A DNA stretch of 64,000 nucleotides from positions 70,561-134,560 of the IMG/VR virus record IMGVR_UViG_3300030616_000016. One strand, 5' to 3'. Below the pieces are notes generated by a model. That model had not been told where the DNA came from. It saw only the letters and a program-made list of their open reading frames with translations, and did no database searches. How positions within the stretch are numbered: position 1 is the first letter of the stretch; each line of letters begins with the position of its first letter. Source of the DNA: a virus. Shown here one piece after another: positions 21,459-42,920 of the stretch. The position numbers and the translations under genes were made by a program.

Positions 21459-21872
21459 TTATCTGGTGTCAATTTTGCTACTCTCTCCTGTTTCTATGCA
21501 ATAATGGACTGTTGTTTCATGACCTGTCATTACTATCATATGATTTCCGCACATATTTATTACATTAGTACTTTCTAAATCATATACATTAAATACCTTT
21601 TGCAGTTCTTTGTCTTTGAATATGAAGACAAGATCCATATCGAACGCACTAAACTGTGTGTTAGTATCTGATACATTTATTATGTAGTCGAAATCTATCT
21701 TTTTATTGATGGATTCTTCAAGATATTCTTGATAATTTTCATCAATATCCTGAGGGTCTTCTACTCCATATACTTCTGATATTTCTTCTTCTGTCAAGAC
21801 TTCCTTGATTGTTTTGCCTTCGATTTCATCAATGTTTCTATACATTGAATTTCCTTTCTGAGAGAGTGACAT
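21459..21872 (-). CDS. hypothetical acidic protein (137 aa)
   Basis: Minus-strand ORF immediately downstream of the tnpB element's right end. Confidence 0.45.
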   Translation of the reverse strand: MSLSQKGNSMYRNIDEIEGKTIKEVLTEEEISEVYGVEDPQDIDENYQEYLEESINKKIDFDYIINVSDTNTQFSAFDMDLVFIFKDKELQKVFNVYDLESTNVINMCGNHMIVMTGHETTVHYCIETGESSKIDTR

Positions 21873-23167
21873 TACCCCACGCCTAAAGGCGGGGGCTTCC
21901 TAATTCATCGAAAATTGCGTTCCATACTGGCTACGTCTTACATCTTCTCCAAAGGCTTTAGGTTCCCCTTGCCCAGGGGTACAAAATGCAAAATTCAAAA
22001 TATTACTAGATGCAAGGGCATCTCTATCGTGTTTGGCACCACAAGTGCAAGTCCAATATCTGTCACTTAGCTTAAGATTATTATTTATAGCGCCGCACTG
22101 GTTACACATCTTGCTGGATGGTTCAAATCTTCCTATAGTCAAAACATGCTTTCCATACCAACCTGCCTTATACTCAAGAAAGGTACGAAAAGTATACCAT
22201 CCAACATCAGAGATAGCCTTGGCCAAACAATGATTCTTCACCATTCCAGAAACGTTTAAATCCTCAAGACACACTGCTTGGTTCTCGTCAATGAGCCTTT
22301 TGGACAATTTATGCAAAAAATCTTTACGTTGATTAGAAATCTTCTCATGTATCAACGCTACCTTCCTACGAGCCTTGTTTCTATTTGAAGAACCTTTCTT
22401 CTTCTTTGATAATTGTTTTTGCTTTCTTGCCAATCTTCTTTCAAGTTTCTTTAGGTATCTTGGATTATCTATTTTCTCGCCTGTTGATAGTGTTGCAAAA
22501 TGTTTTAATCCAACGTCAACACCTACACTATTATCTCGTTCAGGATTACATTTGATAGGTAATTCTTCTCCATTGTCAACCAAAATAGAAGCAAAGTATT
22601 TCCCAGAAGGAGCCATGAATATAGTTACAGTTTTAATATTGCCTTCAAATTGTCTATGGAATTTGCATTTGATGCCATCACGGAATTTCATTACATATAG
22701 CCTATTATTATCAAAATCCACATTACTTCCTTGTGGAAATTGACAAGATTGCTTTTTGAATTTCTTCTTAAATTGAGGATATCTTGCCTGTTTCTTAAAA
22801 AACCGCCGGAAAGCATTGTCAAGGTTTCTAAAGGCCATTTGCAAAGATTGACTATTAACTTCCTTCAGCCAACCATGCTCAGATTTCATATGTTTCAATT
22901 GCTTTATCAAATCAAAACAGGAAGGAGATTTCCCCGTTTTTTGATAAGACTCTGTTTTCTTTTGGAGTCCCAAATTGTATATGAACCGTACACAACCAAA
23001 ATGCTTCACAAGAAGCTCCTGTTGTTTTTTGTTGGGGTATATTTTGTATTTATATGCTCGTATCATTATATTTATAGTATAGCACAGGTTTCTGTAAATG
23101 TCAAGAGAAAAACGCATTCTTATATCCCCATGGCTAAAGCCAGGGGTCTTACGAATGCACCTTGATA
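21866..23167 (-). mobile_element. IS200/IS605-family tnpB-only (IS1341-like) element with subterminal imperfect hairpins
   Basis: Left end begins TTATCAAGGTGCATTCGTAAGACCCCTGGCTTTAGCCATGGGG; right end finishes CCCCCGCCTTTAGGCGTGGGGTAATGTCAC. Both ends recur at 33634-33883 and 62731-62781. Confidence 0.7.
21900..23066 (-). CDS. tnpB: TnpB (OrfB) RuvC-like RNA-guided nuclease / IS605 accessory protein
   Basis: MIRAYKYKIYPNKKQQELL...FGCVRFIYN N-terminus; C-terminal CNQCG...CTCG zinc finger; RuvC-like regions. Confidence 0.85.
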   Translation of the reverse strand: MIRAYKYKIYPNKKQQELLVKHFGCVRFIYNLGLQKKTESYQKTGKSPSCFDLIKQLKHMKSEHGWLKEVNSQSLQMAFRNLDNAFRRFFKKQARYPQFKKKFKKQSCQFPQGSNVDFDNNRLYVMKFRDGIKCKFHRQFEGNIKTVTIFMAPSGKYFASILVDNGEELPIKCNPERDNSVGVDVGLKHFATLSTGEKIDNPRYLKKLERRLARKQKQLSKKKKGSSNRNKARRKVALIHEKISNQRKDFLHKLSKRLIDENQAVCLEDLNVSGMVKNHCLAKAISDVGWYTFRTFLEYKAGWYGKHVLTIGRFEPSSKMCNQCGAINNNLKLSDRYWTCTCGAKHDRDALASSNILNFAFCTPGQGEPKAFGEDVRRSQYGTQFSMN

Positions 23168-23339: not shown

Positions 23340-23390
23340 AGGACACATAAGGAATAAAATGGAGTGTCCTGAGGGACTTGAACCCTCAAC
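23340..23390 (-). other. tRNA 3'-half-like module: canonical T-arm (GAGGG-TTCAAGT-CCCTC) followed by AGGACAC-T-CCA, then a 7-nt complement (GTGTCCT) forming a second hairpin
   Basis: Seen in sequence on the minus strand; no D or anticodon arm could be folded. Confidence 0.3.
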
Positions 23391-23499
23391 TCAGGCATAG
23401 TTAATATTGGCGTTCGAGAAGACAACGCAACAAATGCTGAGCTTTCAGGGAATAGTCTGAATTTAGCGTGCTTTCATATTATCACCAGCTTTCGCCGCG

Positions 23500-23560
23500 T
23501 ATGCCAGTTCCGCCATCTTCCCATATAGTGGGAAGAGCAGGGTTCGAACCTGCACGGTGA
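23500..23560 (-). other. Second tRNA 3'-half-like module: T-arm (GCAGG-TTCGAAC-CCTGC) followed by TCTTCCC-A, then the complement GGGAAGA forming a hairpin
   Basis: Seen in sequence; same architecture as 23340-23390. Confidence 0.3.
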
Positions 23561-23608
23561 AGGAAAGTACTTATTTCAGCTTAACCTTAAGCTTCAGCTT
23601 GCCCTGTA

Positions 23609-24346: not shown

Positions 24347-24371
24347 TTGTTACCTCCTTCTGTAAGATTTA

Positions 24372-25121
24372 TTATTCAATTATTTCTTTTATTTCTTTTA
24401 TGATACTTTCTTTTGATTTAATTTTTGGTTTTGACTCATGCAATATATTATTAGTACTTTCTTGTATCATATAATCTTCAACTTGGATAGATTTTAATGT
24501 GTCTTTATACAAGTCATCGATTGTTATATCTGAAATATCATTTACACTATCAGAATATGTTGATATCATGTTATTAAATTTTGATTTAAGCTCTACTTGT
24601 TTAGACTTTGCCCTCAGAGAAATGAGCTTAGAATCATATTCATTACATTTCTTTTCATATTCTTTTATCTTATTTTCCCAGCTAATCAGAATTTTTCTTA
24701 AAGAGCTTAGTGTTTCTTTTTTAAGCTTAACTTCTTCTTTCATTTTCTTTAGAACAAGTGACCTAGAATGAATCGTTTCTAGTTCTTTTAGGTTTCGCTC
24801 TACATTTGATTCTTTTAGATTTTTCTTTATGTTACTTGTAACTTCTTGTATATTTTGTTCAAGTCCATAAACTTCTTCTTCCAGAAACTTTATATCTATT
24901 TTTAACTCTATTGCCTGTGATTTACTTACTTTCAAATTACTTTTCAGGTCATCTATAACGACCTCGATTCTATCAATTTTTACATCTGTAGGAATTGATT
25001 TTTCTATCTTCTTAACAGTAGTTTTCTGTGCTGTTTTGACATAGCTTTTAACTCTGCTGTATCCAATAAATACGATTGCTAATATTGTTATTATGGCTAC
25101 GACAACAAGTTTTTTAATCAT
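24372..25121 (-). CDS. membrane-anchored coiled-coil protein (N-terminal TM helix)
   Basis: IKKLVVVAIITILAIVFIGY transmembrane helix followed by K/E-rich heptad-like sequence. Confidence 0.5.
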   Translation of the reverse strand: MIKKLVVVAIITILAIVFIGYSRVKSYVKTAQKTTVKKIEKSIPTDVKIDRIEVVIDDLKSNLKVSKSQAIELKIDIKFLEEEVYGLEQNIQEVTSNIKKNLKESNVERNLKELETIHSRSLVLKKMKEEVKLKKETLSSLRKILISWENKIKEYEKKCNEYDSKLISLRAKSKQVELKSKFNNMISTYSDSVNDISDITIDDLYKDTLKSIQVEDYMIQESTNNILHESKPKIKSKESIIKEIKEIIE

Positions 25122-26298
25122 TCAATTTCTCCTCTGATTTTGTTGATTTTTGTAGATTATATTGCATTATGTTTTTATCAAATTCTCTAATCTGTGTCTT
25201 CATTTCTTCTGATTCTTTTATAAGTTTGCTATATTTATGTTTGATAATAGCTTTAGAATGTAATAAGCCAATATGTTCAATAAGTTTATTAAATTTGTAA
25301 GCGAATCTAGTAGCTTTTGCTGGAATTTCTGTCAATGCTTCTACTTCTTGATCAGTTAGAGTTGAAGTTTTTAATTTATCAACTCTTGATTTTAATTCAT
25401 TAAGTTTACTTTGTGGTAATTTCAACTTATTTAATTGGTATTTGAAATCATCTTTGAGGAGATCTGCGAACTTTCCTTCTTTTGCTTCAAGTATATTATC
25501 AAAGAATCCTGTACCTTTCTTAGGTTCTTCTTCTATATATTTATCAAATCTAGTTACGGGTTCTTCCGGAGCACTCGCAAGTTCTTTCAGATACTCTGAA
25601 GGCTTAGGTAATGTTTTAGGTTCTTCTGTTGTTATTTTCTGTTGTAATGATCTTATCCACTCAGCACGTCCATCAAACTTGATGCTGTTTAAAGAAATAT
25701 GGTTATAATAATATTCAATAAGACAATCTGTTACATTTTTTAATATTTGTTCTTTTGGCATTTGATATATACAAGTCTTAAGACATTTTTTACTAATACT
25801 TTCCAAAACATTTTCTTTAATGTTTGGATATTCTGCTTTAATGTATTCTTTTATTAATGGAAGTCTTCTTTCAATAAGTTCATTATTTCTAAGATTATTC
25901 ATCATTAATAATATTACGATTGTTAAGCAAGTTCCAAAAATATATGGATTTATTTTGGTCTCAACTTTTGCAGCATCTCCATATAAGCTATGCCATATTA
26001 CAATAAGTTTTCCTGCTTGGATTATTGAATATACAATTAATGGGATAAATAATATGTATCCTAATGCCTCATATGCACTCATATATGGAAGTGTATTTAT
26101 ATTCATTATTGGCATTGGCTCCTTGGTTTGTGGAACATGGACATTGCTAAGTATTGATATAAGAATAAGTACAAACGAGATTATTAGTGCACAAAATAAT
26201 GACTTACTGGTTTGTATGATTTCAGATAAAAGTATTATCAATGCAAGTAATGGTAATCCAATACAAATGATTATTATAATGTATATAAGCACTACCAT
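25114..26298 (-). CDS. polytopic membrane protein with C-terminal coiled coil (394 aa)
   Basis: Four to five hydrophobic helices in the first 150 aa. Confidence 0.5.
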   Translation of the reverse strand: MVVLIYIIIIICIGLPLLALIILLSEIIQTSKSLFCALIISFVLILISILSNVHVPQTKEPMPIMNINTLPYMSAYEALGYILFIPLIVYSIIQAGKLIVIWHSLYGDAAKVETKINPYIFGTCLTIVILLMMNNLRNNELIERRLPLIKEYIKAEYPNIKENVLESISKKCLKTCIYQMPKEQILKNVTDCLIEYYYNHISLNSIKFDGRAEWIRSLQQKITTEEPKTLPKPSEYLKELASAPEEPVTRFDKYIEEEPKKGTGFFDNILEAKEGKFADLLKDDFKYQLNKLKLPQSKLNELKSRVDKLKTSTLTDQEVEALTEIPAKATRFAYKFNKLIEHIGLLHSKAIIKHKYSKLIKESEEMKTQIREFDKNIMQYNLQKSTKSEEKLND

Positions 26299-26300
26299 AA

Positions 26301-27305
26301 TTATCTCATTAAATATAGATTGCGTAGTTCATCTCTATCATAAAACACATTACGGATTTCTTGTCTAATATTATAGTCTTGAAATATTCTATCATAAAAA
26401 CTAGTAGTATCTCCACCAAGAAATTCTATTGCATCATTTATTGGTTGAGTTGTATTATGGTCTGGAGTAATTCCAATTCCTTCTTTCTCGACTCCATATA
26501 TATCATATATAATTCCTGCTGTGTAATTGAATCCATCGCCTCTATAAAACTTATATGCTTGTACGGCTCTAAAAGCACCAAATGTTTTAGAGCCAAATAT
26601 TGTAGCTTCTGAATAGTATTTCATTGCTGAAACAAATATTTCTGCGAATTGAAATGTACAAGCACTCGTAAGTATACACATATTATTTTTATGAAGCCAT
26701 GTATTTTCTGTTTGCACAGACATATCTGCAAAATCACTAAACGCAAATGCTGTATTATTAATTGCTGCAACTAATTCATTAGAATAAGTTTTGTGAGTAA
26801 ATCCAGCAAGCAGTTTTATGTATTCGCCTAATCCGCCATTATTACAATATCTAAGATCGAGAATTAAAGAATTGCATTCGAATTCATACATGTAATGGTT
26901 GACATTAAGCATAACAGTTTCTGCCATTCCAGCAGACATTTTATCTACAGATATATATAATATATCTGGTTCAATTTTATATATTTTTAATGTTCCTGAT
27001 GCTTCATTATCTGATATGGCTGCTTCCATTTCTTCGCTGTTTATATACCTTGTATATAAATCTGTTTCAGAACGGAGTCTATTTATATATGATTCTAAAG
27101 TATCTGAAGTTAAAGGTGGTTGAACGTTTCCATAAATATAGCCTTGTGATAATACCGAATATGCTTCTTGTAGATATTCTTCATCTACGTTTGTAATTTG
27201 ATTTTCTGTATTTGGATTGCTACTATTTCCTCCTCCTCCACAGCCATTACAAAATATAATTATGATACATAATATGAACAAATTAATTTTGATATTTTTT
27301 ATCAA
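26301..27305 (-). CDS. S41-family (C-terminal-processing / tail-specific) peptidase, lipoprotein
   Basis: Lipoprotein signal (ILCIIIIFCNGCGGGG) and the S41 hallmark LILDLRYCNNGGLG (LxLDLRxNxGG). Confidence 0.65.
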   Translation of the reverse strand: MIKNIKINLFILCIIIIFCNGCGGGGNSSNPNTENQITNVDEEYLQEAYSVLSQGYIYGNVQPPLTSDTLESYINRLRSETDLYTRYINSEEMEAAISDNEASGTLKIYKIEPDILYISVDKMSAGMAETVMLNVNHYMYEFECNSLILDLRYCNNGGLGEYIKLLAGFTHKTYSNELVAAINNTAFAFSDFADMSVQTENTWLHKNNMCILTSACTFQFAEIFVSAMKYYSEATIFGSKTFGAFRAVQAYKFYRGDGFNYTAGIIYDIYGVEKEGIGITPDHNTTQPINDAIEFLGGDTTSFYDRIFQDYNIRQEIRNVFYDRDELRNLYLMR

Positions 27306-27428
27306 GACTACCTCTTTCTGTTTAATAATGGTTGTAATGAATAGGAAAGTCTCTGGTAAGGCAAAAGGATGAAGAGCACGAGGGCTCTTTGGGGGAAGTC
27401 GAAAATTCTCACCAGAGACGGGATATAT

Positions 27429-28220
27429 TTAGAAATCAGTTGATTTTGCGGTTCTCATACCGCGAGCCATCATTTCTTTCACAAAGTCTTCTCCAAGACT
27501 TTCGAAGGTCGCTACATTTGAAGTTGTATCTTCAATTAATACAAACTTCTTAATATTCTCATCGCCGAAGTTATCAGCAATGTCTCTTACTGTATTTGCA
27601 ACACAGTGTGACAGAGCTTCTCCAGTTATGAGAATATCGTCTGCTTCCAGTAGGCTATCAAGAAGATTGCCATTAAGTCTTGTAGTAGGGTCAGACGGGT
27701 CTTCTACATCGGCTTTTACTGCTGAGTAGTGTTCTGTAAAAGGATTAGACCCTTTAGTAACATAGTCAATCATAGCAAACTGATTTTCCCACTCAGTTAT
27801 TGCTTCGAACACATTAGCATCGATTGAATGTCCTTGCGAACCAATAAGACAATGTGGCCGCCAGATGCAGAGAACATATCTGCCATTGTCTTCAAGTGTT
27901 TTTGTATAATCTGAAGCTTTCTGTTGAAGAGCTGGGTTATAGGAATGCCAGACACCATTTTTTACATCATCATGGGATATTACTGTAAATGGGTTTGGAT
28001 GTTTACCATCTTTATCAACCCAGAATATAGGATGTGCAATATGAATGGTTCTGTGAGAATCCATTGTAATATGGATATCATCTAATCCGTCTTTCATTCT
28101 GTTGACCATTTCTGCAAGACGTTTCATATCCTCATCTGCTCTAGGAACAACTAGGGCTCCTTTTGGATTACAGAAGTCATATTGAGGATCAATAGCAAGA
28201 AGATGAGTTTTCTTGTTCAT
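27429..28220 (-). CDS. isochorismatase-family cysteine hydrolase, nicotinamidase (PncA)-like
   Basis: LLAIDPQYDFCNPKGALVVP (PncA N-terminal D...DF) and LITGEALSHCVANTVRD (catalytic Cys motif). Confidence 0.65.
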   Translation of the reverse strand: MNKKTHLLAIDPQYDFCNPKGALVVPRADEDMKRLAEMVNRMKDGLDDIHITMDSHRTIHIAHPIFWVDKDGKHPNPFTVISHDDVKNGVWHSYNPALQQKASDYTKTLEDNGRYVLCIWRPHCLIGSQGHSIDANVFEAITEWENQFAMIDYVTKGSNPFTEHYSAVKADVEDPSDPTTRLNGNLLDSLLEADDILITGEALSHCVANTVRDIADNFGDENIKKFVLIEDTTSNVATFESLGEDFVKEMMARGMRTAKSTDF

Positions 28221-28239
28221 AATTGCTGACCTTTCTTAG

Positions 28240-29895
28240 TTATTTTTTAATACTGATAGAGAACATTTCTTTATCCTCTGTAAAGTATACACTGGTACCA
28301 TCAGTGTATAGTGGCATTGATGAGTCTATCGGCGGATTAGTAATAATGCGTTTTTGATTATCTTTAGAGATCTCAATCTTTTGATCGCTAAATACATCAA
28401 TGCAAACTCCATTATTAAGAACAATGAAATTGATATTATCAACATCGCGCTCTTCTTTGTCTAGCAGAATACCTTTATTTTCTTTGCTGCATAGTTTGAA
28501 TCGGAATCTATAATATTTACCAGATTCTTCTGCTATGCATACTAGAATTCCTCTGCTATGTTTTGCATTGATTATTCTAAGTCCATGGAGTTCCTCAATA
28601 GGACCTAGAAAACTACCAGAATCTTCTAATGGCGCATATGCCCAACATTTGTCTAGGAAGTTGCTAATTACTACTCCACTAAACATTTGATTCATAGTAC
28701 CAAGATTTTGGGATGGATTCGAGCATGCCGCGCTCTTATTCCCCATATTTTTTGCATATACCTCATATACTGAGGCGCCGTTTCTGCAAAATATACTACC
28801 ATTGTATATCATGGCTTTGTCTGCGGCAAATTTACCTGGTATATCCGTTTCTATTTCTACACAGCCATTATCAATTATGCCTAACACAGGGTCAGGAGAT
28901 AGATTGCATAGAAATGCCTTTTTATTGGATATATCCTTAAATATGGATTTACCACAGTATATTGCCTTATCCGTAAATGTATAGAAAATACCATTTAGGA
29001 ATTGTATTGATTTAATCGGCTCATTGTACTTATACATTGATTTAATGTCAAAATTTGCTGTGCTTCTTATAGTCTTTTGAACCATAGCTATATTAATTGT
29101 AGCGTCAGGTTTAGGTGGAGCGCTGCGTTTATTCTCAATGAATATTGACTTAAACCACTCCATATGAGCTTTAGGAATAACTGAGAAGTCTTGACATACG
29201 GATGGAATGGTAACCTTACTATCAAATACGGATATACCATCATCCATTCGCTTAGTAAATTCTCTTGGTTTATAGTCTGGGTGTTTACCCTTATAAGGAT
29301 GGATACCAACATAAAGCTGAAATGCTATTACTGCAAACGAGAACCAATCGCTTAGTTCTGTGAACTTTTTGGCTAAGCGGTCTCTTATTGAATCCATAAT
29401 AGCATTAGCTGGAAATGACTTTGTCTGATAACTGTCAACGTCAATAAAGTAAGGTACTTTATGACCTTTGTCTATCAGAAAGTTCATTTCATTCATATCT
29501 ACTATCAGGCATTGTTTAGAATGAATGTGCTCGACCGTGTCTTGTATATTGCGCACAATTTCTAATACTTGATTAGGAGATATATTATTATCTTTTCTGT
29601 ACTGCTTAGTAAAGAGCTTGCATAGAGCACTTGTCTCTTTAATATACTTCATTGTATATCCGATGACATTGCTTGTCTTTTTATCGCAAACAATATCTTC
29701 CGGTTTGATAACATTGCCGGCTGTTATATAGCCAAGCTCTTCAATCTTTCTTAATGGTATCATATGCTTGATATCATTATAAATCTTGAAGGCAATATTG
29801 TCTTTTTTATATACAGAACCTTGACCACCAGATGCAATAAAATCATTGTCTTTCAGGTCAAATGAAGCCTTTGTTCTATTTACAATGACTCTCAT
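28240..29895 (-). CDS. Hanks-type Ser/Thr protein kinase with a C-terminal beta-rich domain
   Basis: Gly loop GGQGSVY, AFKIY (VAIK), catalytic loop HSKQCLIVDMNEMNFLI, and DVDSY (DFG-like). Confidence 0.7.
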   Translation of the reverse strand: MRVIVNRTKASFDLKDNDFIASGGQGSVYKKDNIAFKIYNDIKHMIPLRKIEELGYITAGNVIKPEDIVCDKKTSNVIGYTMKYIKETSALCKLFTKQYRKDNNISPNQVLEIVRNIQDTVEHIHSKQCLIVDMNEMNFLIDKGHKVPYFIDVDSYQTKSFPANAIMDSIRDRLAKKFTELSDWFSFAVIAFQLYVGIHPYKGKHPDYKPREFTKRMDDGISVFDSKVTIPSVCQDFSVIPKAHMEWFKSIFIENKRSAPPKPDATINIAMVQKTIRSTANFDIKSMYKYNEPIKSIQFLNGIFYTFTDKAIYCGKSIFKDISNKKAFLCNLSPDPVLGIIDNGCVEIETDIPGKFAADKAMIYNGSIFCRNGASVYEVYAKNMGNKSAACSNPSQNLGTMNQMFSGVVISNFLDKCWAYAPLEDSGSFLGPIEELHGLRIINAKHSRGILVCIAEESGKYYRFRFKLCSKENKGILLDKEERDVDNINFIVLNNGVCIDVFSDQKIEISKDNQKRIITNPPIDSSMPLYTDGTSVYFTEDKEMFSISIKK

Positions 29896-30731
29896 GGCTT
29901 ATCCTTAAGCAGTGTAGCACATGCTATATCATCAAAGTGCTTATTGTTTATTTTGGAATCCATGATGCGTATTTTCTTCATTCTTCTTTTTACAAACTCT
30001 CCTTTGAAGGTTTTATATACAGTCATTCGTATAGCGTTATCAAGCACACTTGTATTTTCAAAAGAGCTTATACCATCAGTGAACAGGCTTATGCTCATTC
30101 CTTCTGCCATTGGCGCACTAGACATTATGTATGGCTCGAACATGGGGATTGTAGAGCTCTTAAAGTCTTCGTCTGGGTTATATGACAATACTGTTTTTTC
30201 TGGATTGCCCAATATATCCATAGTATTCATATAGTCTTTAATCTTTTCATCTTCCATGCGATATGCAAGATAGTATGGCATGTTAGATGTATATGATATT
30301 TCTTCAATACGAATCCATGGATTTGGGTCATTCGCTCTATCAAAACCATCATTAAAGACAACTACTCCATCTCCCCATACTGCTATGCCAAATCCCTCAT
30401 TATTGGCTATTACTACCATAAGCGTGGCATAGAATGTCTGGATGTCAAGACAAAGAGCTATTGCTACTTTTGATAGCGCTCCCAACACTTTATTTTCAAA
30501 TGAACAAAGAGCAGTTGATAATGTCTTGTGTCCAAACATAACTATTGAGCTTCTTAATGCTTGTTCTGCAGCAATTCCAAGTATTTTTGCACCAAGGTCT
30601 GTGTTTTGTGCAGAAGAACAGCCGTCACAGACGATACCATAGGAATAACCATAGATATCGCCTGTGATAGCATAATCTTCACACATATCATGACTGGCAC
30701 CAATTTCTACAAAACTATCTTTCTGTATCAT
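29892..30731 (-). CDS. PP2C-family Ser/Thr phosphatase
   Basis: GASHDMCEDYAI ... GIVCDGCSS ... DGVVVFNDG are the PP2C metal-binding Asp motifs. Confidence 0.65.
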   Translation of the reverse strand: MIQKDSFVEIGASHDMCEDYAITGDIYGYSYGIVCDGCSSAQNTDLGAKILGIAAEQALRSSIVMFGHKTLSTALCSFENKVLGALSKVAIALCLDIQTFYATLMVVIANNEGFGIAVWGDGVVVFNDGFDRANDPNPWIRIEEISYTSNMPYYLAYRMEDEKIKDYMNTMDILGNPEKTVLSYNPDEDFKSSTIPMFEPYIMSSAPMAEGMSISLFTDGISSFENTSVLDNAIRMTVYKTFKGEFVKRRMKKIRIMDSKINNKHFDDIACATLLKDKP

Positions 30732-30747
30732 TGGTACTCCCAGTCAT

Positions 30748-31497
30748 TTAGAAGTTAAGAATTGAAGATGCCGAGCCGGATCCAAGAGACTGTGATTGTG
30801 AGGATATGCTTTGACTCACAAATTCAGCCAGCTTTGCAAGCTTGGATGGAGTAGCTTCTCCGACAGATACGTATTTATCAAGGTTTGCATTATCCTTGAA
30901 TGTAGTCAAGAAATTCTTGACTGCAGGATCTTTATCAATCCCGATAAGAACCGTAATAATTGATTCGAGGCTTTCTTCTCTTGTGATATCATCTACTAAC
31001 GTAGCAACTTGTACTGGCGCATTATTTGATTGATTATCAGCGCCATCTGTAATGATAAATACAATTGCATTTGTTAGGAGATCTACTTTATCATACATCT
31101 GCTTGCTATACTGATGTGTTGCTTCGATGCCTTCATATGTTGCATCAAATAATGCAGTTGTACCGCCTGTACGGATGATATTAGAGTATTCATCATCACT
31201 AATATCACTTAGGAGGCGGAAACCATGCATTTCGTTCAGATTAGCATTGAATGTAGTGAAGCGAACCATTAAGTTTTCTGCACGTGGAGACTTTTTGCAT
31301 GATTCGATTACAGTTTTCAGCATATCCTCAATATCATCTTTGTATGGAGACACTGAAGAAGATACGTCGATAATAATTGAAACGAGTGTATATTCAGAAG
31401 CACCTAGTTCATCAAGCTTTACAGCACTGAATCTGAAGTTTGATGCAGTCTGCATACTGGTTATGTTTGCAAGATCTTTATCCATTAATCTTGGCAT
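30748..31497 (-). CDS. von Willebrand factor A (vWA, TerY-like) domain protein
   Basis: MIDAS: IIIDVSSSV (DxSxS), GGTTAL, FIITDGADN. Confidence 0.75.
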   Translation of the reverse strand: MPRLMDKDLANITSMQTASNFRFSAVKLDELGASEYTLVSIIIDVSSSVSPYKDDIEDMLKTVIESCKKSPRAENLMVRFTTFNANLNEMHGFRLLSDISDDEYSNIIRTGGTTALFDATYEGIEATHQYSKQMYDKVDLLTNAIVFIITDGADNQSNNAPVQVATLVDDITREESLESIITVLIGIDKDPAVKNFLTTFKDNANLDKYVSVGEATPSKLAKLAEFVSQSISSQSQSLGSGSASSILNF

Positions 31498-31499
31498 GG

Positions 31500-32486
31500 T
31501 TATTTCCTTTCTTTGTTAAGCCTGTTTCCTTCTCCTAAATGCATAAGGGGAAGCGGTTTAGGGCTATCACCATTTAGGAAGTATACCTTGGTAGCCGGGT
31601 CTTTTGTAATTGTACCTAGTGCTTTAAGTGCTTCAAGCTGGATATATGCAGGATTATTTGCAATAGCATCGTTAACTTTCTGAATTTCATATGCTTTTGC
31701 GTCTGCAAGGATCTTCTGTTTTTCTGCTGAAAGCATTGCGGCGTCTTTATCTGCCTGAGCAGTTTTAACTTTCTTCTGCTGTTCAGTCTCAAACCTGCGC
31801 AACTCTGCTTTCTCACGTTCAGCTTCCTGCTCGCGTTTCTTCTTACTCTCAACACCTTGCTGGATTGTGTTGGGAAGTTGAATATTTCTAATGAGAACAG
31901 CTTCAACATCAAGGCCCTTTGGTGCAACGTATTCTTTAATTGAAGTAAGAAGATTTGCCTGCATCTTTTGCTGAATTTCTTCCCTAAAGAATGACTCTGC
32001 AGTTTTCACACTTTTACCTTGTTCTCGCAATAAGCTTCGGAACTTGGGTAACATGTGTACTTCCATAAGGTCTTTAGGATTACCGGTTTCTTGCAGAATG
32101 TCTGGAGCCATAGACTTGATAATTCGATACTGACAGCTTACATCGAATGTCGTAACAAGCTGGTCCATACTTGGGATGGGAACCTGGCTCATTGTAATAC
32201 TTTTCTGACGACAATCGAATTCTTCCCAATCATACAAAGGATTGGTAAGGTGAATGCCTGCTTCATAGGGCTGATCAACGACTTTACCAAAGAATGTAGC
32301 TACTCCAATATGTCCTGGAGGTATTGAGATAACACATGAAGCGATGAGAGTAATAGCGCCGACGGCTCCTACCAGTAGACCGCCAAGAATATAAGGACGC
32401 CTTTTTTCTTCTGATTTAGCCATAAGACCATATACAAACACCAACAAACCGATTAATGCAATTATAATACCAAGAGCAAGTATCAT
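31500..32486 (-). CDS. SPFH/band-7 (stomatin/flotillin-like) membrane protein with coiled-coil C-terminus
   Basis: N-terminal TM helices followed by an SPFH core (GHIGVATFFGKVVD...), then EQQKKVKTAQADKDAAML coiled coil. Confidence 0.7.
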   Translation of the reverse strand: MILALGIIIALIGLLVFVYGLMAKSEEKRRPYILGGLLVGAVGAITLIASCVISIPPGHIGVATFFGKVVDQPYEAGIHLTNPLYDWEEFDCRQKSITMSQVPIPSMDQLVTTFDVSCQYRIIKSMAPDILQETGNPKDLMEVHMLPKFRSLLREQGKSVKTAESFFREEIQQKMQANLLTSIKEYVAPKGLDVEAVLIRNIQLPNTIQQGVESKKKREQEAEREKAELRRFETEQQKKVKTAQADKDAAMLSAEKQKILADAKAYEIQKVNDAIANNPAYIQLEALKALGTITKDPATKVYFLNGDSPKPLPLMHLGEGNRLNKERK

Positions 32487-32921
32487 ATTACTACCTTTCT
32501 AAATCAAATTACTTTTTAGTATATATACCAATGAAACCATTCCACTGGTAATTTTTGTACTTAATACCACAAATGAATCCAAACAATAGTGTAGATAGAA
32601 CAACAAAGCCTATCATTATTAAAGTAGCTTTTGCTAATTGTTTCATTCTACACCTCTATAATAAGTAAGTTTCCGTATAGCAGCCAACTCCTGGGGAAAT
32701 CGACATTAGGAAAGCATGTCGACTAACTATATGTCTCCATATAGAACAGGTGAAACGTTGGTTTCTCGATTAACTTTCACCTTTCAGCTGTCAACTTTCA
32801 AATCCTGAACTTTGAATTTTAAAGTTTGAGCTTTGAAGGGCTAAGTTTAGTTCGTATTATGAGTACGATACGTAATTCCTATTTTCTTTTCTCCCTCTTC
32901 GCTATGGAAAACTTATTGTAT

Positions 32922-33497
32922 TTATTCTATTGTAATAGTAGTCGTTGCATTGATCATTGACAGCTTACCGTCAATTTCATCTTCAATTTCGCCAAGCTCT
33001 TCCAGTTTCTTATGAACACTTGGTGCATCGACACTGATGACAAGTCCCGCACTGTCTTTGTCGAAGCTGTTGTTCATCGATTCTTCTTGCTTTACATGGC
33101 TATAAACTTGCATATATGAAGTTTTAATTGAAGGGAGAGTTTCTCTTCTCCAAATTAGCCATTCTGCAATTGTCATTTCATAATTGCCAATTTTAACAAC
33201 AGTTGCTTCATTTGCAAGCTGAATTGCCATTCTGATGTTCTTTTTGCGTTCGGCAAGATCAGTGATTGTTTGCATTGTATCTTGCACGAATTTTGCTGAT
33301 CCGCCTTCATTTTCGTATGGATCCTTAAATTTCTCATTCCTTATAGAAACATCAATAACTGCTTTAGTTTTCTTGTTAATCTTATTATTGATGAGTTTAA
33401 TTTCTGCGAGCCCTTCCGTAATAGTCATGTTTGATTCCATGCTGAACCTTTCCTCTCTATTAATTTGTTTTAACCAAAAATTCACCAAACAACACAA
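32922..33497 (-). CDS. hypothetical protein (true start possibly the internal Met at about 33440)
   Basis: minus-strand ORF. Confidence 0.45.
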   Translation of the reverse strand: MCCLVNFWLKQINREERFSMESNMTITEGLAEIKLINNKINKKTKAVIDVSIRNEKFKDPYENEGGSAKFVQDTMQTITDLAERKKNIRMAIQLANEATVVKIGNYEMTIAEWLIWRRETLPSIKTSYMQVYSHVKQEESMNNSFDKDSAGLVISVDAPSVHKKLEELGEIEDEIDGKLSMINATTTITIE

Positions 33498-33633
33498 CTT
33501 GCTTATTAAATGATAATTAGATAGTTACTTAGATAATCAAATTATTTGATAGATCGGTAACATATCTCAATTATGCAATTTTTTGGTAATATATGTATAT
33601 CACTGTGCCTTAAAATGAGTACCTATTATCGTT

Positions 33634-33883
33634 TATCAAGGTGCATTCGTAAGACCCCTGGCTTTAGCCATGGGGATATAAGAATGCGTTTTTCTCTTGA
33701 CATTTACAGAAATCTGTGCTATACTTTTGCTAATGATCGAAAACCAAGATCATTGGCAAAGAATTTAGATACCGCAGGGCATGCGGAAATTTACGCCTTT
33801 GGAGAAGATGTAAGACTTGTCTGCTTGAAAGCAGTCTTCAGTGAATTAGGAAGCCCCCGCCTTTAGGCGTGGGGTAATGTCAC
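33634..33883 (+). mobile_element. MITE-like miniature derivative (about 250 bp) of the IS605-family element, with LE and RE but no tnpB; sits 5 bp downstream of the RNAP beta-like gene
   Basis: About 95 nt match the LE of the full element and about 60 nt its RE (GCCTTTGGAGAAGATGTAAGAC ... GGAAGCCCCCGCCTTTAGGCGTGGGGTAATGTCAC). Confidence 0.65.
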
Positions 33884-33887
33884 CTGA

Positions 33888-35558
33888 TTAGTTTATAAGG
33901 CAAAACAGATACTTCTGAATTCTGTCACTGCCTGTTGCATATTCGTCTATCAGGCGATATAAGAGCTTGTCCCAGCCTTTAGATAGCATCAACTGCATTA
34001 CAGTGATGTATATCCTTGTTCCAGACCTCTTACCACTATTTGCATATATTCCATCATCAGATAGCTTACGACTGCATGCATGAGTATTTGTCTGGTGGCT
34101 GAACTTATCTAATACTATCCAGAACACTTTCCCAGACCATGCCTCAACTGTCTGTCCGTTATAAGTATGCTTTTGTGGCTTGCATTCTTTTATAAGAGCA
34201 GATGGTATATTCCCATCTTCTCCTTCTAGAAAGTGAGGAACGGGCGCCGGCCCTGATTCCTCTGCAATATTATTAAGCATAGCTTCTACTATCTGACCTG
34301 GATTCCTACGCTTTAGAGTTGCAAGAGCGTTGGTTACCACTTCTGCTGGTTTGCCATCTATCTTAGGCATTTGCTCGTCTGGTATAATATTTACTATACC
34401 TTTATTACCGTGACGATTTGTAATTTTGTCGCCACTTCTGAGAATATGAAATCTCTCGTATTCGACAATAAGTTTTGTACAAACTGTGTTTGCTACTTTT
34501 GTTCTTATCTCACTGATATTAGACAGTTTAGCTTCACGCTTGACATGACATTTAAGCGTGATTGTTTCTTCTCCATCAGAATAAGAACCAATTATCTGAT
34601 TTGGTCTTACAATGTCTCCGGCTTTGGCTTCCATCTTTAGGCTTTGTTTGCACCATCCTGGTACTACGAATGTCTGTTTCTCAGGAATGACACATGTCAT
34701 TTTTCTAGCTGCTGACTTACTCATAACAATCTGTTCTTTGTATACACCAGGCATGATTGCATGAACTGTAAGTAAGTGCTTGCCATTAAGATTGTTATCA
34801 TAATCTTCTGGAAACACCATAGGTTTATCTGGACTAACTAGCTTGCTGGAAGCCTTGAAATTAGATGCAGTGGTTCTGCGGCGATTATATTCTGGTACAA
34901 TAAGATTCTTATTGAGTATATCGCAATAAACCCGACCTCTTTTGGTGAAGCATCCAATATCGTTTATTTTGCATTCTTCAGCCATGTACATTGTGCGACC
35001 ACAATTCCCCGATGACTGACTTATACTTGTCCAATCAAGAATGCCTTCTGTATTGAATGGCATAAATTCATCCGTTCGTTCTTGAAATAGCTCTAATGAT
35101 ATTTTGGGTCCATAGTGAGTAGCTATTCCCTTTACGACATGAGATAATCTTGAAGTTTTAAGTAAATTATCGAGCTTCATTTGAGCTGTGGTAGAATCTT
35201 CTTGATGTCCGAACATAAAGAAGTCTGACAGTTGTGTAGCATATGCTTGCTTAATGAATTTAAGAAGAAGCTCGTATGGTGTTGATAAATATGTGTGATT
35301 AATATTCATACATCTGTTATTAAAGATTGGCATTGGATTAAGTGTATAGCATAATTGCCGGCTTATTCCATTTACAGAAAACATACCCTTGTTATCAATC
35401 TTAGGTATATTTAGTTTTACGACTGTTTGCATGCTCTGGGATGCCTCTTTAACAAGCATTTTTGTATGAAATAGGTCATCATATTCTTCTATATGACAGT
35501 CAACAGGCAAACAATTACATATAGGAAACAATCTTGCAAGATGAGACTTATTCATCAT
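33888..35558 (-). CDS. multisubunit RNA polymerase beta-subunit-like protein (C-terminal module of beta)
   Basis: GDKITNRHGNKGIVNIIPDEQMPKIDGKPAEVVTNALA aligns with RpoB GDKMAGRHGNKGVVS...; the GKVFWIVLDKFSHQTNTHACSRK region matches the RpoB C-terminal conserved block. Confidence 0.8.
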   Translation of the reverse strand: MMNKSHLARLFPICNCLPVDCHIEEYDDLFHTKMLVKEASQSMQTVVKLNIPKIDNKGMFSVNGISRQLCYTLNPMPIFNNRCMNINHTYLSTPYELLLKFIKQAYATQLSDFFMFGHQEDSTTAQMKLDNLLKTSRLSHVVKGIATHYGPKISLELFQERTDEFMPFNTEGILDWTSISQSSGNCGRTMYMAEECKINDIGCFTKRGRVYCDILNKNLIVPEYNRRRTTASNFKASSKLVSPDKPMVFPEDYDNNLNGKHLLTVHAIMPGVYKEQIVMSKSAARKMTCVIPEKQTFVVPGWCKQSLKMEAKAGDIVRPNQIIGSYSDGEETITLKCHVKREAKLSNISEIRTKVANTVCTKLIVEYERFHILRSGDKITNRHGNKGIVNIIPDEQMPKIDGKPAEVVTNALATLKRRNPGQIVEAMLNNIAEESGPAPVPHFLEGEDGNIPSALIKECKPQKHTYNGQTVEAWSGKVFWIVLDKFSHQTNTHACSRKLSDDGIYANSGKRSGTRIYITVMQLMLSKGWDKLLYRLIDEYATGSDRIQKYLFCLIN

Positions 35559-40624: not shown

Positions 40625-40985
40625 ATACATATGGTATATTTATTCTTCGTGATTCATTCGTTTGGCATGGTATTTCAATTTGCTTGATTCGCTAATGAGT
40701 AGTGGTGTTTCAATATTTTTGGCTCATTTTAATACTTTGTTCTATTCTTTCATATGATTCATTCCTTGGTCCTGGTATTTTAGGGCTGATGGCTCATTCA
40801 GTACAATTGGTATTTTCGTGTTCATAATTCATTCTTGTTGTTTGGTATTTCCACCAAGATGACTCATTCTAATAAAGTGGTTGTTCAAATAAAGTGATTC
40901 ATTCTTCCACGTTGATGTATTCAATTGCATAGTTCATTCTTTTCTTGTGATATTTCGTGTAGATTGATTCATTCATGAAAACTAT
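40625..40985. repeat. Degenerate tandem array, about 10 units of about 33-34 bp, consensus TGGTATTTC-N7-8-TGATTCATTC-N7-8
   Basis: Read directly: GATTCATTC recurs about 9 times and GGTATTT about 8 times with regular phasing. Confidence 0.7.
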
Positions 40986-41610
40986 GATATTCACTCCAGA
41001 ATAACTTTTCTCTGTAATCCTTACATGCTTTCATGTATTCTTCTAAAGTCTGTAGAAATGATTTCTGTTCTTTTCTATTGTATGTTATAGGCATAGGAGG
41101 AAATCTTTTTATATATTCCTCTTGCTTTTTCTTTTGTATCTTCTTACGCCTATTTTTTCTTGCAAGTTTTCTTCTTGCTTTCATGCGTTGTGTTTTATTA
41201 AGTTGTACAATTTCACTTGTAATTGTTCTTCTATGAATAATCCACGATTTCCTAAGTTCTTGTTTAAATTCCTTAAAGAAATCCCATTCTTCTATAGCTC
41301 TGATTTTTCTTTTGAGACGCCTTCTTATTTTAATCCTTGATTTTCTAATGTGATTAAGTGTGAATATTTTACTACTTATATCTTTGGGCTCATGTTTATC
41401 GAATCCTGGTATCCAGTTATATTCACACCATAGGGTAAGATCTTTTGTAATTTGTTGAACATGCTCGTAATCTGGTTTTACATAATATGTTCTATATTCT
41501 GGAAGATAATGATTGTTTCTTTGTTCTTCAACGAGTTTGTTTGCTACAATAATTACGCAGCCTTTTAGTGATTTTATTAGATGTTCTCTAACAGATTTTG
41601 TTCGATTCAT
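40969..41610 (-). CDS. highly basic protein (213 aa; R/K-rich tracts such as IKIRRRLKRKIR and RMKARRKLARKNRRKKIQKKKQ), candidate DNA-binding protein
   Basis: Minus-strand ORF between the two repeat arrays. Confidence 0.5.
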   Translation of the reverse strand: MNRTKSVREHLIKSLKGCVIIVANKLVEEQRNNHYLPEYRTYYVKPDYEHVQQITKDLTLWCEYNWIPGFDKHEPKDISSKIFTLNHIRKSRIKIRRRLKRKIRAIEEWDFFKEFKQELRKSWIIHRRTITSEIVQLNKTQRMKARRKLARKNRRKKIQKKKQEEYIKRFPPMPITYNRKEQKSFLQTLEEYMKACKDYREKLFWSEYHSFHE

Positions 41611-41637
41611 TTAGTTTATCCTTATATACAATATGCT

Positions 41638-42030
41638 TTAGAACAAAAACCTTACGTTTGGATACTCCTTGAGACATTCAAGACCGGGTTTGATTACTTC
41701 CTGGAAGATATTATATCTGTTAGCTAGCCCGCCACCTAATCTGCTAATTAAGAAGATATAATCATCATATTCTTCTATTCTTCTCTCTAGCTTGGCTAGT
41801 TCTGTTTGGAATTTAGGCTTATATTCTTCTGGCTTATAAAAGCTACCGTCATTGTTATTAGGCGCCTTCTTTGTTACGAATCCATATGTATTTGGCATAT
41901 CACGCAGCTTAGCAGCTCCGCCATATCCCTTATGTAATAGATTGTCGCCAAATACAAATATTTCATATCTATGTCTCTTTAAATAGGCCCTTGTTATTTT
42001 TGTCTCACCGCCGCTTCTATTAGATTCCAT
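41638..42030 (-). CDS. hypothetical protein (130 aa) with an IFVFGDNLLHKGYGGAAK motif
   Basis: Minus-strand ORF. The G-rich motif is reminiscent of Rossmann-like nucleotide-processing folds, but the family is not identified. Confidence 0.45.
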   Translation of the reverse strand: MESNRSGGETKITRAYLKRHRYEIFVFGDNLLHKGYGGAAKLRDMPNTYGFVTKKAPNNNDGSFYKPEEYKPKFQTELAKLERRIEEYDDYIFLISRLGGGLANRYNIFQEVIKPGLECLKEYPNVRFLF

Positions 42031-42079
42031 TTATATCTCCCTTAATAAATTTGAGCCGCAATTATTACGCAGGATTCAA

Positions 42080-42298
42080 TTGAGAGCAGAGGTAGTTGGT
42101 GTCCAATGTCTGTTGGTCAATCCTGCTTACACATCCCAGACTTGTTCAAAGTGTGGTTATGTCCACAAGCTCAATCGGAATGGTGAGATATTTAATTGCA
42201 GGAATTGTGGCTGCAAAGGGGATGCTGATTTAAATGCATCTCGAAATATCTTGAATCTTGGATTGGCTCAGGAGTCTATAGTCCCTGAAAAAACATAA
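42080..42298 (+). pseudogene. TnpB 3' fragment (RuvC-III plus zinc finger only), divergent from the full tnpB at 21.9 kb
   Basis: VNPAYTSQTCSKCGYVHKLNRNGEIFNCRNCGCKGDADLNASRNILNLGL; there is no N-terminal portion. Confidence 0.6.
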
Positions 42299-42329
42299 AA
42301 GAATATTCCTCTATAAATATTCTAACTAT

Positions 42330-42920
42330 TGGTGTTTTCCTTTTTGTGATTCATTCATTATAACTGATGTTTCTATAAGTGTGATTCATTCTTTAATAAT
42401 GGTAATTTAATGGCTTTGATTCATTTTTCCCCAATGGTATTTCTTATGTAATTATTCATTCTTTATACTTGATATTGTGACTACATTGATTCATTTGTAT
42501 GGACTGGTATTTCATATTTAGTGATTCACTCACTTATTTTGGTATTTCCATGGGTGTGGTTCATTCCGGCATGATGGTACTTCTAGGCAATTAATTCATT
42601 CTTATAGTCTGGTACATTGTCCTATCTGATTCATTCCTTCTTTATGGTATTTCGTGACTGATAATTCATTCTGTTCAGCTGGTATTTTGGAGCTTATGAT
42701 TCGTTCGCAATTAATGGTACTTTCTGATTTATAACTCATTTTCTCCGAATGGTATTTCAGATTGAGTGATTCATTTGTTCATGTTGAATTATTGTGCAAA
42801 GTGATTCATTCTCGCGACATGGTATTTTGGGGCTAATGATTCATTCATAATATATGATATTTTTTGGATAATGATTCGTTCATGTTGCATGGTAATTCTA
42901 GGACGCTGACTCGCTCCAAG
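42330..42920. repeat. Second degenerate tandem array, about 17 units of about 33-34 bp, same consensus (TGGTATTTC ... TGATTCATTC) and same orientation as array 1
   Basis: Read directly; ATTCATTC and GGTATTTC cores alternate with variable 7-8-nt spacers. Confidence 0.7.

What the first reader, a model, noticed from the sequence alone, without database searches (positions are those of the whole stretch)
33634..33883. MITE-like 250-bp derivative of the same IS (LE + RE, internal deletion) 5 bp after the RNAP beta-like gene
About 95 nt of left end and about 60 nt of right end of the tnpB element are retained with diverged junction sequence, and the plus-strand ORF 33573-33866 across it is an artefact. 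Such miniature elements can still express an omega-RNA-like transcript or be mobilised in trans. Its position downstream of an essential transcription gene suggests possible terminator or regulatory co-option.
Basis: seen in the sequence. Interest (0 to 1): 0.5.

Follow-up and report, generated by a model that had tools for sequence, protein, structure and literature searches.

The report
Gene-less mini-transposon carrying a guide RNA
A 247-bp protein-less copy of an IS200/IS605 transposon in a 232-kb phage genome keeps both transposon ends, a strong promoter and a complete guide-RNA scaffold for the TnpB nuclease encoded 10.5 kb away; this type of element has been described before, so it is a clean example, not a new kind of system.

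Summary
Window 33637-33883 (+) is a 247-bp miniature IS200/IS605 element. It follows a TTAT target motif and ends 4 nt from the stop codon of a split RNA-polymerase beta-like gene.

- **Ends.** The left end is 98% identical over 97 nt to the full tnpB element (21866-23164, minus strand). The last 43 nt are identical.
- **Middle.** The "diverged junction" is not junk. It is a 114-nt TnpB guide-RNA (omega-RNA) scaffold. A covariance model built only from relatives in other genomes scores it 73.9 bits, above the full copy's 65.3 bits.
- **Structure.** All four stems and a covarying pseudoknot are kept, with compensatory changes in stem 1. A TTGACA-17-TATACT promoter (11/12, with TG) sits just upstream.
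- **Origin.** The scaffold is only 75% identical to the resident copy, so the element is chimeric or gene-converted rather than a simple internal deletion.

Most likely it is a non-autonomous PATE-type element that supplies a second guide to the resident TnpB in trans. That would direct cleavage of the empty site for homing. Expression and activity are inferred. The terminator co-option idea is not supported.

Guide-RNA-bearing PATEs are already described (Meers et al. 2023), so this is a new member of a known kind. Also seen: a 48-bp single-hairpin remnant at 62734-62781, and a second tnpB-less omega-RNA copy in a related phage contig.

The parts
33633..33636 (+). Target/transposon-adjacent motif TTAT (possibly TTATC) immediately 5' of the left end
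   Evidence: The same TTAT precedes all three copies: full 23165-23168 (reverse complement), mini, and micro 62730-62733. Relatives L004 and L005 have TTAC at the same place.
33637..33883 (+). Miniature protein-less IS200/IS605 (PATE-type) element, 247 bp
   Evidence: Homology to both ends of the full element. No target-site duplication in the flanks. No gene called here in the source assembly.
33637..33731 (+). Left end, including the imperfect-palindrome hairpin at 33655-33675 (the presumed TnpA recognition site)
   Evidence: 98% identity over 97 nt to 23076-23172. The hairpin-plus-flank motif was found in more than 120 bacterial genome contigs. It also lies next to a Y1 transposase gene in L061.
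33697..33725 (+). Sigma-70-type promoter TTGACA-17 nt-TATACT with an extended -10 TG. In the full element it drives tnpB; here it is fused to the omega-RNA.
   Evidence: 11 of 12 hexamer matches plus TG. It is conserved in the full copy (23076-23104) and in relatives L004 (TTGACT-17-TATACT) and L005 (TCGACA-17-TATACT).
33726..33760 (+). New 13-bp-stem hairpin (TTTGCTAATGATC / GATCATTGGCAAA). The 3' arm is an inverted duplicate of sequence around the former tnpB start codon, so this marks the deletion junction.
   Evidence: RNA and DNA folds. No counterpart in the full copy or in any locus. The predicted transcription start, about 33732, lies inside its 5' arm.
33770..33883 (+). Complete 114-nt omega-RNA scaffold:
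- stem 1: 33772-33776 / 33782-33786
- pseudoknot: 33778-33781 with 33878-33881
- stem 2: 33796-33800 / 33846-33850
- variable stem 3: 33821-33834
- stem 4: the right-end hairpin, 33854-33874
   Evidence: Covariance model R1, built from 7 relatives only, scores it 73.9 bits with E 4e-14 over the full model length. Covariation of the helices is and of the pseudoknot. The layout matches the 116-nt ISDra2 scaffold (PMC10097598).
33884..33899 (+). Predicted guide (16 nt, perhaps up to 20 nt to 33903). It is antisense to the last codons and stop codon of the RNAP beta-like gene.
   Evidence: By the rule for IS200/IS605 TnpB, the guide is the flank immediately 3' of the right end (PMC10055086, PMC10097598). 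No other TTAT-flanked match exists in the window.
21866..23164 (-). Full-length tnpB-only element (1,299 bp). tnpB is 21900-23066 (388 aa). Its own omega-RNA scaffold is 21866-21981. It is the presumed source of TnpB acting in trans.
   Evidence: Pfam hits, translation, R1 score 65.3 bits, and an identical protein P0001 on a 231.6-kb contig.
62734..62781 (+). 48-bp 'micro' remnant preceded by TTAT. It joins the first 22 nt of the left end, a hybrid left/right hairpin and the last 9 nt of the right end.
   Evidence: It scores only 18.6 bits with R1, so it has no omega-RNA scaffold.

Best explanation
The feature is a non-autonomous, protein-less IS200/IS605 element (a PATE, palindrome-associated transposable element). 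It has been reduced to three working modules:
1. The two subterminal hairpin ends that a Y1 transposase (TnpA) recognises.
2. The left-end promoter that normally drives tnpB.
3. A complete omega-RNA scaffold that ends at the right-end boundary.

**Proposed mechanism**
- Transcription from the promoter would give an RNA of roughly 150 nt. Its 3' continuation into the flank (33884 onward) is the guide.
- The TnpB made by the full copy 10.5 kb away would load this RNA in trans.
- The complex would cut any genome copy that has TTAT directly followed by the guide-matching sequence. That is the empty site, either after TnpA excision or in a co-infecting phage that lacks the insertion.
- Repair by recombination with an occupied copy would restore or spread the mini-element.
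- Because the cut site lies in the last codons of the RNAP beta-like gene, that 3' end would be co-converted.
- The occupied site is protected because GTCAC, not TTAT, precedes the target.

**Shown here:** the anatomy, the homology, the conservation of the RNA structure and the presence of an apparently intact TnpB.

**Inferred:** transcription, loading onto the resident TnpB, cleavage, homing, and mobilisation by a TnpA supplied from elsewhere.
For: - **End homology.** 98% over 97 nt at the left end and 100% over the last 43 nt.
- **Independent model.** A covariance model built without any window sequence finds exactly two strong hits in the window: the mini (73.9 bits) and the full copy (65.3 bits). 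In 74 viral tnpB loci its 60 hits all lie at the 3' end of a tnpB gene.
- **Helix covariation.** 94.4% of cells are paired, against 35-47% when the partners are slid. 19 of 20 pairs show changes on both sides.
- **Pseudoknot.** It was not part of the model, yet 96% of cells pair, with 23 double changes against 6.2 in shuffles. The mini has GGCA:UGUC.
- **Stem 1.** It differs from the full copy by two fully compensatory pair changes (CCCCU/AGGGG to CCGCA/UGCGG) and no disruptive change.
- **Scaffold size and layout.** These match the 116-nt functional ISDra2 scaffold, whose 5' extension is dispensable (PMC10097598).
- **Promoter.** 11 of 12 matches plus TG, conserved in relatives.
- **TnpB.** Full-length Pfam domains and the D-E-D motifs are present.
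- **Target uniqueness.** The guide has no other TAM-flanked target in the window.
- **Recurrence.** A related phage contig also carries one tnpB element plus one tnpB-less omega-RNA copy, again with compensatory stem-1 changes.
- **Literature.** PATEs that encode omega-RNAs used in trans are described in PMC10055086.
Against: - There are no expression data.
- Only one copy of the mini exists and no empty-site allele was found. Only one contig carries this phage, so mobility is unproven.
- No tnpA is present in the 64-kb window.
- The scaffold is only 75% identical to the resident TnpB's own scaffold, so compatibility is assumed, not shown.
- Stem 2 has only three canonical pairs plus two U-U mismatches. 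The resident copy and its closest relatives share this.
- The strong 13-bp hairpin just after the promoter, followed by GAAUUU, might attenuate transcription.
- The phage encodes its own multisubunit RNA polymerase, so use of a sigma-70-type promoter during infection is uncertain.
Confidence: 0.6

Rival explanations
1. It is an inert relic: a dead deletion derivative that is neither transcribed usefully nor mobilised, kept only because it is recent or neutral.
For: - It is a single copy with no empty-site polymorphism available.
- No tnpA is present in the window.
- A clearly dead 48-bp remnant of the same family exists at 62734-62781, which shows that these elements do decay in this genome.
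Against: - Every functional module is intact.
- The 20 differences from the full copy within the scaffold include only compensatory changes in stem 1 and none in stem 2, stem 4 or the pseudoknot.
- It scores higher against the family model than the tnpB-linked copy.
- A second phage keeps a similar tnpB-less scaffold with three compensatory pair changes.
Confidence: 0.25
2. It has been co-opted as a terminator or 3'-end stabiliser for the RNAP beta-like gene. Its hairpins, read on the minus strand, would end or protect the mRNA.
For: It lies 4 nt after the stop codon, and several stable hairpins follow on the minus-strand transcript.
Against: - No terminator-like site was found on either strand of 33300-34100.
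- None of the minus-strand hairpins is followed by a U-tract (read directly from the sequence).
- The relative L080 has only a 57-nt spacer, with no such element, after the orthologous gene.
- Conservation tracks the plus-strand RNA structure, including a pseudoknot, and not a minus-strand terminator.
Confidence: 0.05
3. It acts as an antisense regulator. Transcription from the strong promoter runs convergently into the 3' end of the RNAP beta-like gene and lowers its expression, independently of TnpB.
For: The promoter points at the gene and no terminator lies between them.
Against: This does not explain why the full omega-RNA scaffold and pseudoknot are preserved. No conserved antisense arrangement is seen in relatives.
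Confidence: 0.05

Closest known systems
PATE-like minimal IS200/IS605 elements of Geobacillus stearothermophilus (Meers et al. 2023, PMC10055086) and Haloquadratum walsbyi PATEs (PMC3119063)
   Same: Both are protein-less elements bounded by the left and right ends of a co-resident IS200/IS605 family. The paper states that PATEs often encode omega-RNAs that need TnpB supplied in trans.
   Different: - This one sits in a 232-kb phage genome rather than a bacterial or archaeal chromosome.
- The left-end tnpB promoter is fused almost directly to the scaffold.
- Its scaffold is a diverged variant (75% identity) of the resident copy's, while the ends are near-identical.
- It is a single copy, not a multi-copy family.
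ISDra2 TnpB omega-RNA (Nakagawa et al. 2023, PMC10097598)
   Same: - A scaffold of about 115 nt ending at the right-end boundary.
- Four stems plus a pseudoknot between an upstream loop and the last nucleotides before the guide.
- A variable, dispensable stem 3.
- The guide is taken from the flank.
   Different: - No detectable sequence similarity was tested; the correspondence is architectural.
- The TAM here is TTAT(C), not TTGAT.
- Here the RNA is uncoupled from tnpB.
tnpB-only IS1341-type elements of phages
   Same: The parent copy at 21866-23164 is of this type. TnpB homologues occur in 428 phage records.
   Different: The feature under study has lost tnpB altogether. The closest phage-database TnpB is only 48% identical to the resident one.
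RAGATH-18 RNA (Rfam RF03064), the guide-RNA motif of IS607 TnpBs (PMC11061315)
   Same: A weak match covers stems 2 and 3 in both the mini (21.2 bits) and the L206 copy (24.6 bits).
   Different: Both scores are far below the gathering score of 44.9 bits, so it is not a member.

Membership tests
IS200/IS605 non-autonomous element (PATE/MITE-like) | Left and right ends with subterminal imperfect palindromes matching those of an autonomous or tnpB-bearing element | tested here: met
   The left-end hairpin is identical and the right-end hairpin plus tail is identical to the full copy.
IS200/IS605 non-autonomous element (PATE/MITE-like) | Insertion immediately 3' of a conserved short target motif, without target-site duplication | tested here: met
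   TTAT precedes all three copies, and the flanks are unrelated with no duplication.
IS200/IS605 non-autonomous element (PATE/MITE-like) | No protein-coding capacity | tested here: met
   ORF 33573-33866 has no Pfam hit. No gene is called here in the source assembly. The former tnpB C-terminal frame is broken by a 2-nt length difference.
IS200/IS605 non-autonomous element (PATE/MITE-like) | Evidence of mobility: multiple copies, or occupied versus empty sites | tested here: inconclusive
   There is a single mini copy. No other contig carries this phage. The nearest relative has only 66% RNAP identity, which is too divergent to define an empty site.
IS200/IS605 non-autonomous element (PATE/MITE-like) | A cognate Y1 transposase (TnpA) available in trans | tested here: inconclusive
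   None was found in the 64-kb window by tblastn. The rest of the 232-kb genome and the host were not available. Matching left-end hairpins lie next to tnpA in L061 and are widespread in bacteria.
TnpB omega-RNA | Conserved scaffold that ends at the right-end boundary | tested here: met
   Model R1, built from relatives only, gives 73.9 bits over its full length and ends at 33883.
TnpB omega-RNA | Secondary structure supported by covariation, including the pseudoknot next to the guide | tested here: met
   The helix counts come from an alignment fitted to the model. The pseudoknot was not modelled.
TnpB omega-RNA | Expressed, bound by TnpB, and directs TAM-dependent DNA cleavage | not testable with these tools
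   Needs RNA-seq, RIP and cleavage assays.
Intrinsic (Rho-independent) terminator | G+C-rich hairpin followed by a U-tract on the strand of the upstream gene | tested here: not met
   One search found 0 sites on either strand in 33300-34100.
Rfam RAGATH-18 (RF03064) | Score at or above the curated gathering threshold | tested here: not met
   21.2 bits against a threshold of 44.9. There were no gathering-level Rfam hits anywhere in the window.

The most novel reading that the evidence does not exclude
The resident TnpB may work as a small multi-guide system whose two guides drive a whole accessory island, not just the transposons.

- Compared with the related phage L080, the window carries about 13 kb (about 20852-33887) that L080 lacks.
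- The mini sits exactly at one edge of this block and the full element about 1 kb inside the other edge.
- Both have their left ends facing inward and their guides facing outward into conserved flanking genes.

In a co-infection, cuts at both outer sites in an island-less genome could be repaired from the island-bearing genome. That would copy the whole block, an RNA-guided version of homing-endonuclease marker exclusion.

A second phage with one tnpB plus one stand-alone omega-RNA (L206/L207) hints that satellite guides are a recurrent arrangement.
Probability: 0.07. Interest if true: 0.75.

Novelty: new member of a known kind. Interest (0 to 1): 0.35.

Why it matters
The element is a compact natural example of how modular the IS200/IS605 system is. 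The transposase-recognised ends, the promoter and the nuclease's guide RNA can persist without any protein gene and can be recombined from different lineages.

In a phage, a stand-alone guide placed against an essential polymerase gene could bias inheritance of that region during co-infection, as free-standing homing endonucleases do. The roughly 150-nt promoter-plus-scaffold unit is also a natural minimal omega-RNA expression cassette for a 388-aa TnpB.

None of this changes current understanding. It adds a well-delimited case, and a covariance model with a supported pseudoknot, for this TnpB clade.

Tried and rejected
- **Near-identical DNA in phage records.** None found.
- **Exact left-end and right-end strings in IMG/VR.** None found.
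- **Left-end string in JGI metagenomes.** Only two chance hits, inside an unrelated gene.
- **Exact-protein look-ups** with the mechanical ORF boundaries, and for P0121: not on record.
- **RNAP-gene relatives in IMG/VR.** None found.
- **Empty site via relatives L080-L084.** Synteny is clear, but the DNA is too diverged to define the pre-insertion site.
- **Rfam.** Nothing at gathering level. Only sub-threshold RAGATH-18 and HPnc0580 hits.
- **tRNA scan.** None.
- **More tnpB-less omega-RNA copies among 80 bacterial loci carrying the left-end motif.** All 9 model hits fit full-length elements or are unrelated to the motif.
- **Homology between the genes that follow the RNAP gene in the window and in L080.** None.
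- **IS608-style base-pairing rule between the target motif and the nucleotides 5' of each hairpin.** I tried to derive it by eye and abandoned it, because I could not recall the rule reliably.

Full report
**What is in the sequence**

The window is the reverse complement of about 64 kb of a 231.6-kb metagenomic contig, ENA ERZ27252234 k141_1275754. Its genes are phage-like and include a split RNA-polymerase beta-like gene at 33888-35558 on the minus strand (Pfam RNA_pol_Rpb2_6).

At 21866-23164 (minus strand) lies a 1,299-bp tnpB-only IS200/IS605 element.
- Its 388-aa product matches HTH_OrfB_IS605, OrfB_IS605 and Cas12f1-like_TNB over their full lengths.
- The RuvC motifs VGVDVG, CLEDLN and HDRD are present.

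The finding at 33634-33883 is real.
- The repeat finder pairs 23076-23172 with 33629-33725 (97 nt, 98%), 21866-21922 with 33827-33883 (57 nt, 91%), and 21935-21981 with 33770-33816 (47 nt, 83%).
- Local alignment merges the last two into one 114/116-nt block at 82.8% identity.
- The family's hairpin pattern occurs five times in the window and never in shuffles: twice in the full copy, twice in the mini, and once in a third 48-bp copy at 62734-62781.
- All three copies are preceded by TTAT. The right ends all finish with GTCAC, and the flanks are unrelated.
- The mini is therefore 33637-33883 (247 bp), with 1 nt of uncertainty if the target motif is TTATC. Its right end lies 4 nt from the RNAP gene's stop codon.

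**Anatomy of the mini, 5' to 3' on the plus strand**

1. The left end, with its imperfect-palindrome hairpin at 33655-33675.
2. A TTGACA-17-TATACT promoter with an extended -10 TG at 33697-33725, scoring 11 of 12. In the full copy and in relatives L004 and L005 it sits just upstream of the tnpB start codon.
3. The first few tnpB codons, then a perfect 13-bp-stem hairpin at 33726-33760. Its 3' arm is an inverted duplicate of the preceding sequence. This marks the deletion junction.
4. From 33770 to 33883, the block homologous to the last 116 nt of the full element.

**The "diverged junction" is a complete omega-RNA scaffold**

I collected tnpB relatives and aligned the 3' ends of seven of them, none from this window. 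RNAalifold gave a three-helix consensus in which 15 of 20 pairs show compensatory changes.

A covariance model (R1) was built from those seven sequences and searched over the window with filters off.
- It found two strong hits: the mini at 73.9 bits (E about 4e-14, full model length) and the full copy at 65.3 bits.
- The micro copy reached only 18.6 bits.

Across 74 viral tnpB loci the model's 60 hits all lie at the 3' end of a tnpB gene. The mini was the only tnpB-less hit in that search.

On the resulting 44 distinct sequences, 94.4% of cells pair, against 35-47% when partners are slid, and 19 of 20 pairs change on both sides. That alignment is fitted to the model, which favours the structure.

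A fourth interaction was not modelled. The loop of stem 1 pairs with the four nucleotides just before the terminal AC (GAAC:GUUC, GGCA:UGUC, GGAU:AUCC and others). It is 96% paired, with 23 double changes against 6.2 in shuffles.

This layout is four stems plus a pseudoknot next to the guide, in about 115 nt. It matches the experimentally defined 116-nt ISDra2 scaffold, whose longer 5' part is dispensable (PMC10097598).

The mini keeps all of it.
- Stem 1 differs from the resident copy by two fully compensatory pair changes.
- Stem 2, stem 4 and the pseudoknot are unchanged.
- Stem 3 is replaced by a different and more stable hairpin, at the position that varies across the family.

**Origin**

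Divergence between the mini and the resident copy is very uneven.
- At the ends there are 2 differences in 140 nt.
- In the 81-nt scaffold there are 20 differences (Fisher p = 4e-8).
- The resident scaffold is 94% identical to that of L004, a relative from another metagenome whose hairpin ends are quite different. The mini's scaffold is 75% identical to both and 81.5% identical to L005.

The mini is therefore not a simple internal deletion of the resident copy. Either it combines a scaffold from a cousin lineage with ends of the resident type, or its ends were homogenised by gene conversion. This fits the modularity noted by Meers et al.

**Mechanism**

By the established rule for these elements, the guide is the flank 3' of the right end (PMC10055086, PMC10097598).
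- Here the guide is CTGATTAGTTTATAAG..., antisense to the last codons and stop of the RNAP gene.
- The cognate target, TTAT followed by that sequence, exists only in an empty site. The occupied site has GTCAC in place of the TAM, and no other TAM-flanked match occurs in the window.

The best-supported reading is a PATE that supplies a second guide to the resident TnpB in trans. That would allow restoration or spread of the insertion by cut-and-repair homing.

Transcription, loading, cleavage and mobilisation are all inferred. No tnpA is in the window. Near-identical left-end hairpin motifs sit beside a Y1 transposase gene in L061 and occur in more than 120 bacterial genome contigs from many phyla, mostly Bacillota. 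A transposase supplied in trans is therefore plausible, but none was identified.

**Alternatives**

- *Inert relic.* This cannot be excluded without expression or polymorphism data. It fits poorly with the pattern of substitutions and the intact modules.
- *Terminator or regulatory co-option.* This is not supported. No terminator-like site exists on either strand. The orthologous gene in relative L080 is followed by a plain 57-nt spacer. What is conserved is a plus-strand structure.
- *Plus-strand ORF 33573-33866.* It has no family match and was not called in the source assembly.

**Context and a second example**

Relative phage L080 (RNAP 66% identical) is collinear with the window up to the RNAP stop codon and again from about 20776. 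In between, the window has about 13 kb that L080 replaces with 0.87 kb holding an unrelated gene.
- The mini lies exactly at one edge of this variable block and the full element about 1 kb inside the other edge.
- Both guides face outward.
- This underlies the speculative island-drive reading, to which I give a low probability.

Separately, a 21-nt string from the scaffold hits the 38-kb phage contig IMGVR_UViG_3300037504_000175 twice.
- One hit is in its tnpB element (L207/L005).
- The other is in a tnpB-less copy (L206 5402-5508, minus strand) that keeps 107 nt of scaffold plus right end at 91.6% identity. It has no detectable left end and no tnpB.
- Three of its stem-1 pairs differ from its resident tnpB copy, all three compensatory.

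Stand-alone omega-RNA copies beside a single tnpB thus recur in at least two unrelated phage genomes.

**Comparison with what is known, and verdict**

[quoted passage not shown] The feature is a clear new member of that kind.

It has some noteworthy particulars: a large-phage setting, a promoter-scaffold fusion, chimeric ancestry and an insertion against an essential gene. Novelty is low to moderate.

Noticed in passing
window 62730-62781: A 48-bp 'micro' copy of the same IS, preceded by TTAT. It joins the first 22 nt of the left end, a hybrid hairpin (left-end 5' arm, right-end 3' arm) and the last 9 nt of the right end. It looks like the scar of a deletion between the two hairpins. It supplies the last codons and the stop codon of ORF 62761-63024 (minus strand).
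   Followed up: partly
window about 20852-33887, compared with L080 5672-6545: About 13 kb is absent from the related phage L080, which has 0.87 kb with an unrelated 198-aa gene instead. The block encodes Band_7, PP2C phosphatase, a protein-kinase-like protein, S41 peptidase and DUF7873. It is bounded by the mini on one side, with the full IS about 1 kb inside the other side. Both left ends face inward and both guides face outward.
   Followed up: partly
L206 5402-5508 (minus strand) and L207 10086-11249 (same contig, IMGVR_UViG_3300037504_000175): A different phage contig carries one tnpB element plus a tnpB-less omega-RNA/right-end copy. That copy has no detectable left end and shows three compensatory stem-1 pair changes. 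About 290 nt of non-coding, well-folding sequence (z = -3.0) lies upstream of it.
   Followed up: partly
The taxa include Bacillota, Spirochaetota, Chloroflexota, Methylacidiphilum and Ignavibacteria. The transposase-recognition module is therefore far more widespread than this TnpB/omega-RNA clade.
   Followed up: partly
window 40755-42916: Thirteen copies of a roughly 45-nt unit with a conserved TGATTCATTC core, spaced at multiples of 35 nt in two clusters (repeat family D2).
   Followed up: no
window 61601-62056 and 59482-59571: Tandem arrays with periods of 12 nt (23 registers) and 15 nt (5 copies), inside or near ORF 61020-62240 (minus strand).
   Followed up: no
window 61016-61097 and 63919-64000: An 82-nt direct repeat at 94% identity, 2.9 kb apart. 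The second copy is cut by the window end.
   Followed up: no
window 10567-10654: A 42-nt inverted repeat with a 4-nt spacer (74% complementary). It contains TTGACT and TATAGT-like hexamers on both arms and may be a divergent promoter or operator.
   Followed up: no
window 33796-33852 and L206 5431-5489: Sub-threshold Rfam matches to RAGATH-18 (21.2 and 24.6 bits; gathering score 44.9), the guide-RNA motif of IS607 TnpBs. They fall on stems 2 and 3 of the scaffold.
   Followed up: no
L084 (ENA ERZ27252234 k141_678569): The same sample contains a second, distinct phage whose RNAP beta-like protein is 53% identical. Related large phages therefore co-occur and could co-infect.
   Followed up: no
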